Positions 6,001-9,000 of a stretch of DNA of 39,530 bases are shown here, piece by piece. This DNA comes from a virus (lineage: Duplodnaviria > Heunggongvirae > Uroviricota > Caudoviricetes): the IMG/VR virus record IMGVR_UViG_2718218228_000004; one strand, given 5' to 3'. How positions within the stretch are numbered: position 1 is the stretch's first letter; the number at the start of each line of letters is the position of its first letter. The position numbers were made by a program.

Positions 6001-9000
6001 GGGAATCTGTAGATCGCCGCAGAGCAAAAAATGGCGATAGAGAATACATGGCATGGGATATGGCGCTTGGCTGGATTATCTGGTGTCACCGCGCCGCCAT
6101 GCTTCAGGCTGGAAACTTTCGGGAAAATAAGGGTTCGTCAACCAATAATTTTCGGATAATCTCGGAAACGTCAACCAACTCTCCGGCAATCCCTGATGAG
6201 GTGTTGTCCGCAATCCTGAAGGTCGCCAGGCTTCGTGCAGATTTCGATGCTTCTGAAGTGGACAGGCGAGGTATCGGTAGTTGTCTGGATGAGGCCGAGC
6301 AAGAACTTATCGTTACCATTAACGAATACGCCAGTCAGATCGCAGTAGAAGCGACACAGGGGGAGAACCAATGAGCCGGCCAGATGCATTTGCAGGCGTT
6401 GCTATAGCTATTGCTTTTCTAGTATATGTTATTTGTCGGTGGGGGTAAAAACGTTCGCCGGGATTCACACCAAGGGAGGGAATATGTCGGATGATATTTC
6501 ACTGGTAATGGAAGGCGCTCTGGCTGTTATTGCTGTTGTGGGTGTTTACTGCCTGGTTGTGTTTTTGATGGAGCGCCTGGGGAACTGAATTCATTCCGTA
6601 TGGGAATTCCCATATCGGGCAAAACGGTTTGCTGTAAAGCGAGAGTTAAGTAGAATTGCTGCGGGTGCTTGAGGCTGTCTGCCTCGGGCATGCCACCGTA
6701 AGGCAGACAGAGAAAAGCCCCAGTTAACATTACGCGTCCTGCAAGACGCTTAACATTAATCTGAGGCCCAATCTATGCTTCACAAACGTAGGTTAGCCTC
6801 TTACGCGCCGAAAGGCAAGGAGAAGCAGGTTATGAAGCAGCAAAAGGCGATGTTAATCGCCCTGATCGTCATCTGTTTAACCGTCATAGTGACGGCACTG
6901 GTAACGAGGAAAGACCTCTGCGAGGTACGAATCCGAACCGGCCAGACGGAGGTCGCTGTCTTCACAGCTTACGAACCTGAGGAGTAAGAGACCAGGCGGG
7001 GGAGAAATCCCTCGCCACCGCTGATGTGTCAGGCATCCTCAACGCACCCGCACTTAACCCGCTTCGGCGGGTTTTGTTTTTTCTGGTCGTTCTGGTTTAC
7101 AATCCATCCGTCAGCCTGAACAACTGGCACCTGCTGCGCCAGCAGAGAAAACAGATGGCGCACGATACCAAATTTTACAATTCGGATAACTCTGCCGCCC
7201 CTGCCAGCAGGCACGGGCGGCGTTCTCATGCATTCAAATCTGACTGGTATCAGCACGACCCCTGCACCGAAGAACAGGCTGAATGGCTGATTCAGTGTTA
7301 CCGCAGGCGCGGATACGAGGTTAAGAAAGCCCTCAGTCTCGATTATCGTCACTGGATAATCTCCGTCAGGCTTCCTTACTCCGAACGCCCACCGCGTCCG
7401 TCCCGCACATTCCAGCAACGCATCTGGAGGTAACGTGCGGGTATTACTTCGACCTGTTCTGGTACCGGAACTCGGGCTGGTGATCGTTAAGCCGGGCCGT
7501 GAATCCATGCCGGTATTCCACAATACCCGGGTACTGGTGGAGCCGGAACCGAAAAGCATGCGTAATCTGCCGTCCGGGGTCGTTCCTGCCGTTCGCCAGC
7601 CGCTGGCGGAGGATAAATCATTACTGCCATTTTTCAGCGACGAACGAGTGATTCGTGCTGCTGGTGGCGCTGGCGCACTGTCTGACTGGTTACTGCGCCA
7701 TGTTAAATCCTGCCAGTGGCCACACGGCGATTATCACCACAGTGAAACCGTCATTCACCGTTATGGTACCGGCGCAATGGTGTTGTGCTGGCACTGCGAC
7801 AACCAGTTGCGTGACCAGACCTCCGAATCACTTGAGCAACTTGCTCACCAAAACCTGTCAGCATGGATGATTGACGTCATTCGTCACGCAATGAATGGCA
7901 CACAGGAGCGTGAATTATCGCTGGCTGAATTATCCTGGTGGGCGGCCTGCAATCAGGTGGTGGATGCACTACCTGAGGCAGTAGCGCGTCGTTCGCTGGG
8001 ATTACCAGCGGAAAAAATCCGCTCCGTATACCGTGAGAGTGACATCGTACCGGGAGAACAGACAGCCATCAGCATACTGAAGCAGCGCACAAAAAATATT
8101 GCGCTGCCACTTCACGTCCACCAGCAACAAAATCCACCACAGAAAAAAACGGTTGTCAGTATCGCCGTTGATCCGGAGTCTCCTGAATCGTTCATGAGGC
8201 GGCCTAAACGTTGCCGCTGGGTTAATGAGAAATACACGCGCTGGGTAAAGACACAGCCGTGTGCGTGTTGTGGTAAGCCTGCTGACGATCCGCATCACCT
8301 GATTGGTCATGGTCAGGGGGGAATGGGGACAAAGGCCCACGATATTTTCACGCTACCGTTGTGCCGGGAGCACCACAACGAACTTCATGCAGACCCGCTG
8401 GAGTTTGAGAAAAAGTACGGCTCTCAGATTGAGTTAATTTTTCGTTTTCTTGATCACGCCTTTGCGACTGGCGTGCTCGGGTAAAAGAGGTGACTGATGC
8501 TCATAGATTTGGTTTTACCTTACCCGCCGACGGTGAACACCTACTGGCGACGTCGTGGCAGCACATATTTTGTATCAAAAGCCGGTGAGCGTTATCGCCG
8601 GGCTGTGGCGCTTATTGTTCGCCAGCAGCGGCTGAAATTAAGCCTGTCCGGAAGGCTGGCGATAAAGATTATTGCCGAGCCACCGGATAAGCGCCGCCGT
8701 GACCTGGACAATATTCTGAAAGCGCCGCTGGATGCGCTGACGCATGCGGGGTTGCTAATGGACGATGAGCAGTTTGATGAAATCAATATTGTGCGCGGTC
8801 AGCTCGTTCCTGGTGAGCGGCTGGGGATAAAAATCACAGAACTGGAGTGCGCATGAATAACCACTATTTACAGTTTGTGCGTGAGCTGCTCATTATCGCT
8901 ACCGCCGATTTGAGTGGGGCAACAAAAGGTCAGCTTGAAGCCTGGCAGGAGAATGCCATGTTCGATACAGGGCGTTACAGGCGAAAAAAAATCCGGTACC

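What the first reader, a model, noticed from the sequence alone, without database searches (positions are those of the whole stretch)
6600..7083. Apparently complete hok/mok/sok-type type I toxin-antitoxin locus
The Hok protein is of the HokD/RelF type. Unlike many decayed chromosomal hok loci, this one keeps the in-frame mok extension, a highly structured leader and a 3' terminator. A cis-antisense Sok-like RNA opposite the mok start (about 6760-6860, minus strand) would be expected, but I cannot place its promoter from sequence alone.
Basis: partly seen in the sequence, partly recalled or inferred. Interest (0 to 1): 0.45.

Follow-up and report, generated by a model that had tools for sequence, protein, structure and literature searches.

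The report
Intact prophage hok/mok/sok toxin-antitoxin locus
This is an ordinary, already well-known kind of small "addiction" cassette: a membrane-killing peptide gene held in check by an antisense RNA. It sits complete inside a defective lambda-like prophage of E. coli O157 and is identical in hundreds of sequenced genomes.

Summary
Window 6628-7082 holds a complete hok/mok/sok type I toxin-antitoxin cassette.

- **Toxin.** The 51-aa Hok (6832-6987) matches Pfam HOK_GEF (E=1e-23). It is 100% identical to E. coli K-12 HokD/RelF.
- **mok.** An in-frame mok ORF starts at 6775.
- **RNA.** The leader matches Rfam RF01794 (115 bits). Folding reproduces each published hok mRNA state.
- **Sok placement.** I placed Sok by homology to the annotated, experimentally characterised sokW of phage Sp5/VT2-Sakai. 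The RNA is about 6783 to 6713 on the minus strand (71 nt). Its promoter is -35 TTGCCT (6818-6813), a 17-nt spacer, then -10 TAACCT (6795-6790).
- **Conservation.** In 42 family loci the tac-fbi helix is 88% paired, with one perfect U-A/C-G covariation. The antisense promoter is conserved.
- **Comparison with K-12.** K-12 hokD keeps only the part from about 6818 onward, so this copy is the intact form.
- **Spread.** The 501-bp stretch is 100% identical in many O157/O26 genomes. Related copies occur in 4726 of 5426 complete E. coli genomes.

Verdict: already known, low interest. Transcription, toxicity in context and biological role were not testable here.

The parts
6628..6656 (+). hok mRNA promoter: -35 TTTGCT (6628-6633), 17-nt spacer, -10 TAGAAT (6651-6656)
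   Evidence: TAGAAT aligns column for column with TATGAT in the R1-type locus. That TATGAT is the experimentally mapped hok -10 box (PMC9841398). The region is identical in hokW. The -35 assignment is my reading of the sequence.
6663..7082 (+). Full-length hok mRNA (about 420 nt), inferred 5' end at G6663
   Evidence: The 5' end comes from alignment to the R1-type locus, whose -10 box lies at -12..-7 (PMC9841398). The Rfam model starts at 6663. The fold has z=-6.5. The 3' end is set by the terminator.
6663..6674 (+). tac (translational activator element), GGGUGCUUGAGG
   Evidence: It pairs with fbi in the MFE of the full-length RNA and with ucb in the 3'-truncated RNA. The motif is conserved in 42 loci, with U-A/C-G covariation against fbi.
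6681..6694 (+). Partner of tac in the metastable 5' hairpin of the nascent transcript
   Evidence: The first 35 nt fold into a hairpin of -21.2 kcal/mol; 1 of 200 shuffles folds as well. This matches the mechanism described in PMC9841398.
6717..6723 (+). ucb / anti-SD box (GCCCCAG)
   Evidence: It pairs with the mok SD region in the full-length fold and with tac in the truncated fold. The helix is 93.6% paired across 42 loci, with GC:24 / AU:13 at one pair.
6713..6783 (-). Sok antisense RNA (71 nt), covering the mok SD and mok start codon
   Evidence: Coordinates are transferred from the annotated sokW misc_RNA of VT2-Sakai through a gap-free alignment. It differs from SokW at 5 of 71 positions. 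The fold is a 14-nt single-stranded 5' tail, a long hairpin and UUUU, at -29.2 kcal/mol, z=-5.2. Expression was not tested.
6790..6818 (-). Sok promoter: -35 TTGCCT (6818-6813), 17-nt spacer, -10 TAACCT (6795-6790)
   Evidence: The hexamers are identical to hokW. There, mutating this -10 (primers YO-421/422) abolished antitoxin activity (PMC8621323). The pattern is the homologue of TTGCGC-17-TATCCT in the R1-type locus. A TTG -35 start occurs in 41 of 42 loci and TAnnCT in 32 of 42. The consensus scan missed it because the -10 matches only 3 of 6 positions.
6763..6766 (+). mok Shine-Dalgarno (GAGG), 8 nt before the mok ATG
   Evidence: Read from the sequence. The GAGG is aligned in most of the 42 family loci. 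It is the same motif as the R1 mok SD (PMC9841398).
6775..6987 (+). mok reading frame (70 codons), in frame with hok and sharing its stop
   Evidence: The same arrangement is annotated for mokW. The start position is conserved at -57 (in frame) or -58 (+1 frame, R1 type) across the family.
6796..6800 (+). dcb (GCCUC), pairs with the mok SD region after 3' processing
   Evidence: The truncated-RNA fold shows GAGGC (6763-6767) paired with GCCUC.
6832..6987 (+). hok toxin gene (51 aa), with SD GGAG at 6819-6822
   Evidence: Pfam HOK_GEF E=1.2e-23. PHROG 251 'MokW-like host killing' E=2.8e-33. It is 100% identical to K-12 HokD and 92% identical to HokW.
6970..6972 (+). Tyr47 codon UAC followed by G (UACG): candidate TadA A-to-I editing site (Tyr to Cys)
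   Evidence: Read from the sequence. PMC12214031 reports that K-12 hokD mRNA, identical here, is edited at about 6%, and that this cysteine is coded by RNA editing in HokC, HokD and HokE.
6995..7016 (+). GC-rich stem-loop just after the hok stop: probable 3' protective hairpin of the processed mRNA
   Evidence: It is present in both folds. The helix is 76.5% paired with 4 pairs changed on both sides across 42 loci. Its role is inferred from R1 (PMC9841398).
7037..7049 (+). fbi (fold-back inhibition element), CCUCAACGCACCC
   Evidence: It forms 12 bp plus one bulge with tac in the MFE. An fbi-like complement lies 45-50 nt after the hok stop in most family loci. The helix is 88% paired, with one pair at UA:21 / CG:20 and none unpaired.
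7056..7082 (+). Intrinsic terminator (7-bp stem, 5 G-C pairs, then a T-run)
   Evidence: It is shared with K-12 hokD but differs from hokW.

Best explanation
Window 6628-7082 is an intact hok/mok/sok type I toxin-antitoxin cassette. It is the undamaged form of E. coli K-12 hokD/relF and sits in a defective lambdoid prophage of E. coli O157.

Inferred mechanism, following the plasmid R1 paradigm:
- A weak constitutive promoter (-10 TAGAAT) makes a stable mRNA of about 420 nt.
- While the transcript is nascent, its 5' tac element is trapped in a metastable hairpin.
- In the full-length RNA, tac pairs with the 3' fbi element, and the mok Shine-Dalgarno is sequestered by ucb. The RNA then neither translates nor binds Sok.
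- Slow 3' trimming removes fbi. tac re-pairs with ucb, and the mok SD moves into the SD/dcb hairpin.
- That processed RNA has two fates. Either the abundant, unstable 71-nt Sok RNA binds it and it is destroyed, or, if Sok has decayed, ribosomes translate mok. Translational coupling then yields Hok, a 51-aa inner-membrane peptide that kills the cell.

Shown here: the presence, integrity, conservation and covariation of every sequence element. Inferred: transcription, processing, coupling, toxicity in context and biological role.
For: **Toxin.** Pfam HOK_GEF E=1e-23. PHROG 251 E=3e-33. The protein is 100% identical to K-12 HokD/RelF. RelF/HokD toxicity on overexpression is established (Gerdes 1986 and Knudsen & Karlstrom 1991, cited in PMC3554958; HokD was used as a toxic control in bioRxiv 10.1101/2025.08.07.668861).

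**Leader.** Rfam RF01794 at 114.9 bits.

**Folds.**
- Full-length: tac/fbi and ucb/SD paired, z=-6.5.
- 3'-truncated: tac/ucb and SD/dcb paired.
- Nascent: metastable hairpin.
- These are the three states described for R1 (PMC9841398).

**Conservation across 42 loci.**
- tac-fbi is 88% paired, with a UA:21 / CG:20 pair.
- ucb-SD is 93.6% paired.
- The fbi position is conserved in most loci.

**Sok.**
- Coordinates come from the annotated sokW.
- The promoter hexamers are identical to sokW's. Mutation of that -10 abolished antitoxin function in Sp5 (PMC8621323).
- The antisense promoter is conserved family-wide.
- The fold is a 5' tail, a hairpin and a U-run.

**mok.** The start is at the conserved -57 position with a GAGG SD.

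**Cassette boundaries.** Homology in other genomes starts at window ~6617-6644 and ends at ~7069-7086. This coincides with the promoter and terminator.
Against: - No expression data could be obtained. Both promoters are weak matches to consensus: the Sok -10 matches 3 of 6 positions and the scan did not call it.
[quoted passage not shown] Intact anatomy therefore does not guarantee R1-like behaviour.
- The tested structure was derived from the window's own sequence, which favours it in the slid-partner control.
- The host prophage is defective: integrase, terminase and J are frameshifted and the capsid gene is truncated. A role tied to excision or lytic growth is doubtful for this copy.
Confidence: 0.87

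Rival explanations
1. The locus is anatomically intact but physiologically silent. Like the intact chromosomal hokA, hokB and hokC loci, it may neither kill on loss of transcription nor stabilise its element. In that case it is a selfish or neutral passenger copied along with prophage modules.
For: Chromosomal hok loci with all elements failed in post-segregational killing and rifampicin tests (literature summarised in bioRxiv 10.1101/2025.08.07.668861). The prophage is decaying, and its integrase is frameshifted in the identical genome. O157 genomes carry 4-8 related copies.
Against: Every regulatory element is kept, with compensatory changes relative to its paralogues. The closest paralogue, hokW-sokW, behaves as a working toxin-antitoxin pair (PMC8621323). 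In K-12 the same gene lost its leader, which shows that decay does occur where the cassette is not maintained.
Confidence: 0.3
2. Its main role is to assist lysis on prophage induction, as reported for hokW-sokW of Sp5, rather than addiction. Sok disappears after SOS induction, and Hok damages the inner membrane before holin and endolysin act.
For: PMC8621323 reports that mitomycin C removes sokW RNA, induces HokW in a RecA-dependent way, and that deleting the locus halves phage release. This cassette lies in the sense orientation between the replication genes and Q. Early-right read-through would therefore cross it and run against the Sok promoter; that step is inference.
Against: This prophage cannot make particles: terminase and J are frameshifted, the capsid gene is truncated, and two IS1203 copies flank the lysis genes. 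hokW sits at a different place, near attR, and in the opposite orientation within its phage.
Confidence: 0.25
3. It acts as an abortive-infection (phage exclusion) module. Shut-off of host transcription by an infecting lytic phage would deplete Sok and release Hok.
For: [quoted passage not shown]
Against: That same study found no enrichment of hok next to defence systems. Nothing in the window bears on this directly.
Confidence: 0.15
4. The resemblance is a chance match or a decayed remnant.
For: None found.
Against: Pfam E=1e-23, Rfam E=1e-25 and fold z=-6.5. The ORFs are intact, and every element is conserved.
Confidence: 0.01

Closest known systems
hokW-mokW-sokW of Stx2 phage Sp5 / VT2-Sakai / 933W (Takada et al. 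2021, PMC8621323; annotated in AP000422)
   Same: Hok is 92% identical. The DNA is colinear without gaps from the promoter to fbi. mok is in frame and the same length. The Sok promoter hexamers and spacing are identical. Sok is 71 nt and differs at only 5 positions. Both lie in lambdoid prophages of O157.
   Different: - Position in the phage: here between the replication/nin-like genes and Q, in the sense orientation. hokW lies near attR on the opposite strand.
- The terminator downstream of fbi differs.
- Three of the five Sok differences fall in the 14-nt 5' recognition tail. The predicted tail-target energy halves in cross pairings (-19.8 against -9.1 kcal/mol).
- The last six Hok residues differ.
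hok/mok/sok (parB) of plasmid R1, the paradigm of the family
   Same: Promoter position, tac, metastable hairpin, ucb, mok SD, dcb, Sok promoter position and spacing, hok SD, 3' hairpin and fbi are all present in the same order.
   Different: Hok is only 43% identical. R1 mok starts at -58 and reads in the +1 frame, ending 4 nt before the hok stop. Here mok starts at -57 in frame and shares the stop. The tac-fbi pair is C-G in R1 and U-A here. R1 is on a plasmid; this copy is in a prophage.
hokD (relF) of the E. coli K-12 Qin prophage, third gene of the relBEF operon
   Same: The Hok protein is identical. The DNA is nearly identical from window ~6818 to 7082, including the hok SD, 3' hairpin, fbi and terminator. 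The neighbourhood is also similar, with a downstream DUF968 gene (ydfU) in a lambdoid prophage.
   Different: K-12 lacks the hok promoter, tac, ucb, mok start, Sok RNA and the Sok -10; relBE occupies that place. It is regarded as inactivated by rearrangement (PMC12214031). The window has the complete locus.
Chromosomal hokC (gef) type loci of Escherichia
   Same: The 5' GGGUGCUUGAGG tac, the fbi ending in GCACCC and the in-frame mok are the same as in loci L025-L032, which have 50-aa Hok proteins about 80% identical.
   Different: These loci have a shorter leader that lacks the inner part of the Sok hairpin. They are reported not to mediate post-segregational killing (bioRxiv 10.1101/2025.08.07.668861).

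Membership tests
hok/sok (Hok/Gef) type I toxin-antitoxin family | Small (about 50 aa) Hok/Gef-family membrane toxin ORF | tested here: met
   Pfam PF01848 at 82.9 bits against a cut-off of 22. PHROG 251 E=2.8e-33. 100% identical to K-12 HokD.
hok/sok (Hok/Gef) type I toxin-antitoxin family | Overlapping mok reading frame that starts about 57 nt upstream of hok, has its own SD and extends through the hok start | tested here: met
   ATG at 6775 with a GAGG SD at 6763-6766, 70 codons. The start position (-57/-58) recurs across the aligned family loci.
hok/sok (Hok/Gef) type I toxin-antitoxin family | Cis-encoded antisense Sok RNA gene: a promoter inside the 5' part of mok, an RNA complementary to the mok SD and start, and a terminal hairpin with a U-run | tested here: met
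   Tested at sequence level only. The promoter TTGCCT-17-TAACCT is at the homologous position in hokW and the R1 type, and a TTG -35 start is present in 41 of 42 loci. RNA coordinates come from the annotated sokW. Transcription itself could not be tested.
hok/sok (Hok/Gef) type I toxin-antitoxin family | Long-range tac (5' end) to fbi (3' UTR) pairing that closes the full-length mRNA | tested here: met
   12 bp in the MFE. An fbi-like complement lies 45-50 nt after the stop in most loci. The helix is 88% paired, with a fully compensated UA:21 / CG:20 pair.
hok/sok (Hok/Gef) type I toxin-antitoxin family | ucb sequesters the mok SD in the full-length RNA; after 3' truncation the RNA refolds to tac/ucb and SD/dcb | tested here: met
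   Tested in silico. Full-length fold and truncated fold. The ucb-SD helix is 93.6% paired with GC/AU covariation. Actual 3' processing was not testable.
hok/sok (Hok/Gef) type I toxin-antitoxin family | Metastable 5' hairpin that sequesters tac in the nascent transcript | tested here: met
   The first 35 nt fold at -21.2 kcal/mol with tac fully paired. This is a thermodynamic prediction only.
hok/sok (Hok/Gef) type I toxin-antitoxin family | Match to the curated covariance model of the hok leader (Rfam RF01794 'sok') | tested here: met
   114.9 bits against a gathering score of 59, full length 1-157. The match is on the hok-sense strand and ends at the hok AUG. It therefore supports the leader, not the antisense RNA as such.
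hok/sok (Hok/Gef) type I toxin-antitoxin family | Hok is toxic and Sok neutralises it (RNase III-dependent decay of the duplex) | not testable with these tools
   Literature only. The identical RelF/HokD protein is toxic on induction (PMC3554958; bioRxiv 10.1101/2025.08.07.668861). The paralogue sokW neutralises HokW, with partial dependence on RNase III and Hfq (PMC8621323).
hok/sok (Hok/Gef) type I toxin-antitoxin family | Post-segregational killing, or stabilisation of the carrying element | not testable with these tools
   Reported as negative for some intact chromosomal loci (bioRxiv 10.1101/2025.08.07.668861). Unknown for this one.
K-12-type hokD (relBEF operon arrangement) | hokD lies directly downstream of relBE and lacks its own leader, mok and sok | tested here: not met
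   The window has its own promoter, leader, mok and sok. Homology to K-12 starts only at ~6818, and no relBE is upstream. The RefSeq gene name 'hokD' is correct for the protein, but the locus architecture is the complete one.

The most novel reading that the evidence does not exclude
The cassette lies in the sense orientation inside the early-right (replication to Q) transcription unit, and no terminator was detected upstream of it in 6400-6662. Anti-terminated read-through during prophage induction could therefore override its RNA logic in two ways. Transcripts with extended 5' ends could not form the tac end-pairing, and convergent transcription would silence the Sok promoter. Hok release would then be tied to induction. 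In parallel, the three substitutions in the Sok 5' tail relative to SokW could insulate the several hok/sok copies of one O157 genome from each other. Neither idea was tested.
Probability: 0.2. Interest if true: 0.35.

Novelty: already known. Interest (0 to 1): 0.12.

Why it matters
It matters little as a discovery. The family is the textbook type I toxin-antitoxin system. This exact sequence is present and annotated (as hokD) in hundreds of genomes. A paralogue 92% identical at protein level has been dissected experimentally.

It has three modest uses:
- RefSeq annotates only the hok CDS here. The mok frame, the Sok RNA and the promoters can now be placed to the base.
- It shows what K-12 hokD/relF looked like before relBE replaced its 5' half.
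- It gives a natural pair (this locus and hokW) for testing whether paralogous Sok RNAs cross-react within one genome.

Tried and rejected
- **Consensus promoter scan.** It found no minus-strand promoter for Sok, because the -10 matches only 3 of 6 positions. The promoter had to be placed by homology. The scan's plus-strand hit at 6750-6779 (TTAACA-18-TATGCT) lies inside the leader, and its -10 is CATGCT in hokW. I rejected it as chance.
- **Search for hokW in VT2-Sakai.** I first looked in the nin/Q region and the left arm and found nothing there. It is near attR.
- **First R1-type locus (H122).** It has IS150 immediately upstream, so I replaced it with H125/L006.
- **NCBIfam.** Hok models match below their cut-offs (48.5 against 73 bits). 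The RefSeq name 'hokD' is therefore not explained by these HMMs. Pfam and PHROGs are decisive instead.
- **Covariance model of the whole mRNA.** I did not attempt one, because 420 nt exceeds the size and time limits. I used a MAFFT alignment with counting of named pairs instead.
- **Loci left out of the alignment.** L026, L051, L056, L069, L077 and L088 were excluded because their fbi geometry was odd or their matches partial.
- **Failed scripts.** Two scripts failed because L002 was not yet on disk. I used DNA alignment instead.
- **Naming the prophage.** I did not try to assign a Sakai prophage number, because no tool result supports a specific name.
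Full report
**1. What is in the sequence**

Window 6600-7083 contains a 51-codon ORF at 6832-6987. A 70-codon ORF starts at 6775 in the same frame and shares the stop codon.

- The short ORF matches Pfam HOK_GEF (PF01848) at 82.9 bits, E=1.2e-23, against a cut-off of 22. It also matches PHROG 251, 'MokW-like host killing', at E=2.8e-33.
- Rfam RF01794 ('sok') matches 6663-6837 over its full length at 114.9 bits, E=1e-25. This match is on the hok-sense strand and ends at the hok AUG. It is therefore evidence for a hok mRNA leader, not directly for the antisense RNA.
- A terminator-like hairpin at 7056-7073 is followed by a T-run.
- The 420-nt stretch 6663-7082 folds at -174.9 kcal/mol. 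Shuffles average -132.9 ± 6.5, giving z=-6.5, and 0 of 100 shuffles fold as well.
- The window holds only this one hok locus.

**2. Where it comes from**

- Window 1-37000 is base-for-base identical to a stretch of the E. coli strain 350 chromosome.
- The 501-bp locus is 100% identical in many O157:H7 and O26 genomes, where RefSeq annotates only 'hokD'.
- The element is a lambdoid prophage next to tRNA-Ser, mtfA and yeeJ.
- The gene order is cI-like/cro/YdaT, replication genes, small ORFs, hok, DUF968, RusA, Q, tRNA Ile-Arg-Arg, nanS-like esterase, lysis genes and morphogenesis genes.
- The prophage is defective. Integrase, large terminase and J are frameshifted, the capsid gene is truncated, and two IS1203 copies flank the lysis genes.
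- Related copies of the cassette occur in 4726 of 5426 complete E. coli genomes. In 3858 genomes a copy covers at least 80% of the query. The median is 2 places per genome and the maximum is 10.
- Copies also occur in 79 phage records and 611 plasmid records, many of the latter non-mobilisable plasmids of about 90-100 kb.
- In other genomes the homology starts at window ~6617-6644 and ends at ~7069-7086. The exchanged unit therefore coincides with the span from promoter to terminator.

**3. Relation to K-12 hokD/relF**

An alignment with the Qin prophage of MG1655 shows near-identity from window ~6818 to 7082. That span includes the hok SD, an identical Hok protein, the 3' hairpin, fbi and the terminator. 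There is no similarity upstream, where K-12 has relE-relB.

K-12 therefore lacks the hok promoter, the leader, the mok start, Sok and the Sok -10. This agrees with the published view that it was inactivated by rearrangement (PMC12214031).

**4. Placing Sok**

The VT2-Sakai (Sp5) record annotates three features:

| Feature | Coordinates in L007 | Strand |
|---|---|---|
| hokW | 29816-29971 | - |
| mokW | 29816-30028 | - |
| sokW RNA (71 nt) | 30020-30090 | + |

The window aligns with that locus without gaps from the promoter to fbi. Transferring the coordinates gives Sok at 6783 to 6713 on the minus strand.

- **Promoter.** Upstream on the minus strand lie TTGCCT (6818-6813), a 17-nt spacer and TAACCT (6795-6790). 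These hexamers are identical to those of hokW. The 'promoter-less' construct of Takada et al. (primers YO-421/422) changed exactly this -10 and lost antitoxin activity, which sokW supplied in trans partly restored (PMC8621323).
- **R1 comparison.** The R1-type locus has TTGCGC-17-TATCCT at the homologous columns.
- **Family-wide.** Among 42 family loci, a TTG -35 start is present in 41 and a TAnnCT -10 in 32.
- **Fold.** The candidate Sok has a 14-nt unpaired 5' tail, one long hairpin and UUUU, at -29.2 kcal/mol, z=-5.2.
- **Target.** Sok is complementary to the mok SD (GAGG, 6763-6766) and the mok start codon (6775).

**5. The hok mRNA switch**

The -10 TAGAAT (6651-6656) aligns with TATGAT in the R1-type locus. 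That TATGAT is the experimentally defined hok -10 box at -12..-7 (PMC9841398). This puts the transcription start at G6663, which is also where the Rfam model begins.

Thermodynamic folding reproduces the three published states (PMC9841398):

| State | Predicted pairings |
|---|---|
| Nascent (first 35 nt) | tac (6663-6674) locked in a hairpin with 6681-6694, -21.2 kcal/mol |
| Full-length | tac pairs with fbi (7037-7049; 12 bp, one bulge); ucb (6717-6723) pairs with the mok SD region |
| fbi removed (6663-7034) | tac pairs with ucb; GAGGC (6763-6767) pairs with dcb GCCUC (6796-6800) |

A GC-rich hairpin at 6995-7016 sits where R1 has the stem-loop that protects the processed 3' end.

**6. Comparative test**

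A scan of one genome per species with a Hok alignment returned 80 loci. They come from Escherichia, Shigella, Kluyvera, Photorhabdus, Pantoea, Enterobacter, Buttiauxella, Leclercia, Erwinia and others.

- In most loci that have a tac-like 5' motif, the best complement to tac in the 3' UTR lies 45-50 nt after the hok stop.
- I aligned 42 non-identical full-length regions and counted the pairs of the window's structure on that alignment.

| Helix | Cells paired | Notable pairs |
|---|---|---|
| tac-fbi | 88% | one pair UA:21 / CG:20, none unpaired |
| 5' hairpin | 88% | 5 pairs changed on both sides |
| ucb-SD | 93.6% | GC:24 / AU:13 |
| Sok-terminator/leader hairpin | 90% | – |
| 3' hairpin | 76.5% | 4 pairs changed on both sides |

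Over the whole structure, 74.6% of cells are paired, against 40-44% when the 3' partners are slid by 1-3 columns. The covariation score is 0.155 against 0.055-0.085 for the slid versions. One caveat applies: the structure was derived from the window's own sequence, which favours it in that control. The compensated pairs are independent of this bias.

**7. mok**

The mok start is conserved at -57 or -58 relative to hok. It is in frame with the same stop in the hokD, hokW and hokC types. In the R1 type it is in the +1 frame and ends 4 nt before the hok stop. An in-frame mok is thus normal for this subfamily. What is conserved is translation through the region, not a Mok peptide.

**8. Extra layer: RNA editing**

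Codon 47 is UAC followed by G (6970-6973). K-12 hokD mRNA, identical here, is reported as about 6% A-to-I edited. The resulting cysteine is described as coded by RNA editing in HokC, HokD and HokE (PMC12214031). I did not test this.

**9. Function**

The anatomy supports the R1 mechanism. Toxicity of the identical RelF/HokD protein is established in the literature (PMC3554958; bioRxiv 10.1101/2025.08.07.668861). The closest paralogue is a working toxin-antitoxin pair that speeds lysis and doubles phage release on induction (PMC8621323).

Against assuming R1-like addiction, intact chromosomal hokA, hokB and hokC loci failed in post-segregational killing and rifampicin tests (bioRxiv 10.1101/2025.08.07.668861). 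This prophage also cannot complete a lytic cycle. The biological role of this copy therefore remains open between stabilisation, induction-linked killing, phage exclusion and none.

**10. Differences from hokW**

- The position and orientation within the phage differ.
- The terminator differs.
- Sok differs at 5 of 71 positions, three of them in the 5' recognition tail. The predicted tail-target energy is -19.8 kcal/mol for the cognate pairing and -9.1 kcal/mol for the cross pairing. This hints at partial insulation between paralogues, which is inference only.

**11. Verdict**

The finding is correct and well delimited, with one correction to the Sok coordinates. It is an already known system in an already annotated sequence. 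Interest is low.

Noticed in passing
window 6600-6613: A perfect 14-bp palindrome, ATGGGAATTCCCAT, with an EcoRI site at its centre. It lies just after the upstream small ORF and just outside the left boundary of the shared hok cassette. It has no T-run, so it does not look like an intrinsic terminator. It is absent from the hokW locus.
   Followed up: partly
window 6371-6448 and 6484-6588: Two small hydrophobic ORFs lie immediately upstream of hok: a 25-aa ORF (MSRPDAFAGVAIAIAFLVYVICRWG) and a 34-aa ORF that RefSeq annotates as hypothetical. Both look like single-pass membrane peptides. Neither matches any Pfam or NCBIfam family.
   Followed up: partly
window 13015-14228 (-) and 16232-17445 (+): Two IS1203/IS629-type IS3-family copies sit in inverted orientation and flank the holin, YdfR and lysozyme genes. 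Their frameshift pseudoknots have identical Rfam ALIL scores (121.5 bits each). The arrangement resembles a composite transposon, or could allow inversion of the lysis cassette.
   Followed up: no
window 9753-9999 and 10176-10945: A tRNA Ile-Arg-Arg cluster lies downstream of Q. It is followed by a TerB-family pseudogene with an internal stop, a DUF3927 gene and an Rfam STnc100 sRNA match (10773-10945, 98.8 bits), all ahead of a SASA/NanS-like esterase gene. In VT2-Sakai the stx2AB genes sit at this position, between the same tRNAs and the esterase-like gene. This looks like an stx-less relative of that layout.
   Followed up: partly
window 19926-21855, 25571-25834, 32598-36076: In the identical genome record the large terminase and J genes are annotated as frameshifted and the major capsid gene as truncated. 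The integrase, just outside the window, is also frameshifted. The prophage that carries the intact hok/sok is itself defective.
   Followed up: partly
window 6663-6837: The Rfam family named 'sok antitoxin' (RF01794, 157 positions) matches the hok-sense strand and ends at the hok AUG. In practice it models the hok mRNA leader rather than the 64-71-nt antisense RNA. Strand calls from this family can mislead.
   Followed up: yes
window 6970-6973: The Tyr47 codon of hok is UAC followed by G, inside a predicted hairpin loop that is conserved across the family. This is the reported TadA A-to-I editing context, which would recode Tyr to Cys.
   Followed up: partly
loci L018, L028, L034, L066, L067, L068; phage hit H21: Near-identical hok cassettes appear on contigs labelled Veillonella, Acinetobacter, Xanthomonas, Ferruginibacter, Streptomyces and Oscillibacter, and in an 'Actinobacillus phage' record (96% identity). 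Contamination with enterobacterial DNA, or mis-binning, is the likeliest explanation.
   Followed up: no
window 7155-7433: A 92-aa ORF directly downstream of the hok terminator matches PHROG 1212 (unknown function, E=8e-37). It shows no similarity to rem, which occupies this position in K-12 Qin. Homology between the two prophages stops at the hok terminator.
   Followed up: partly
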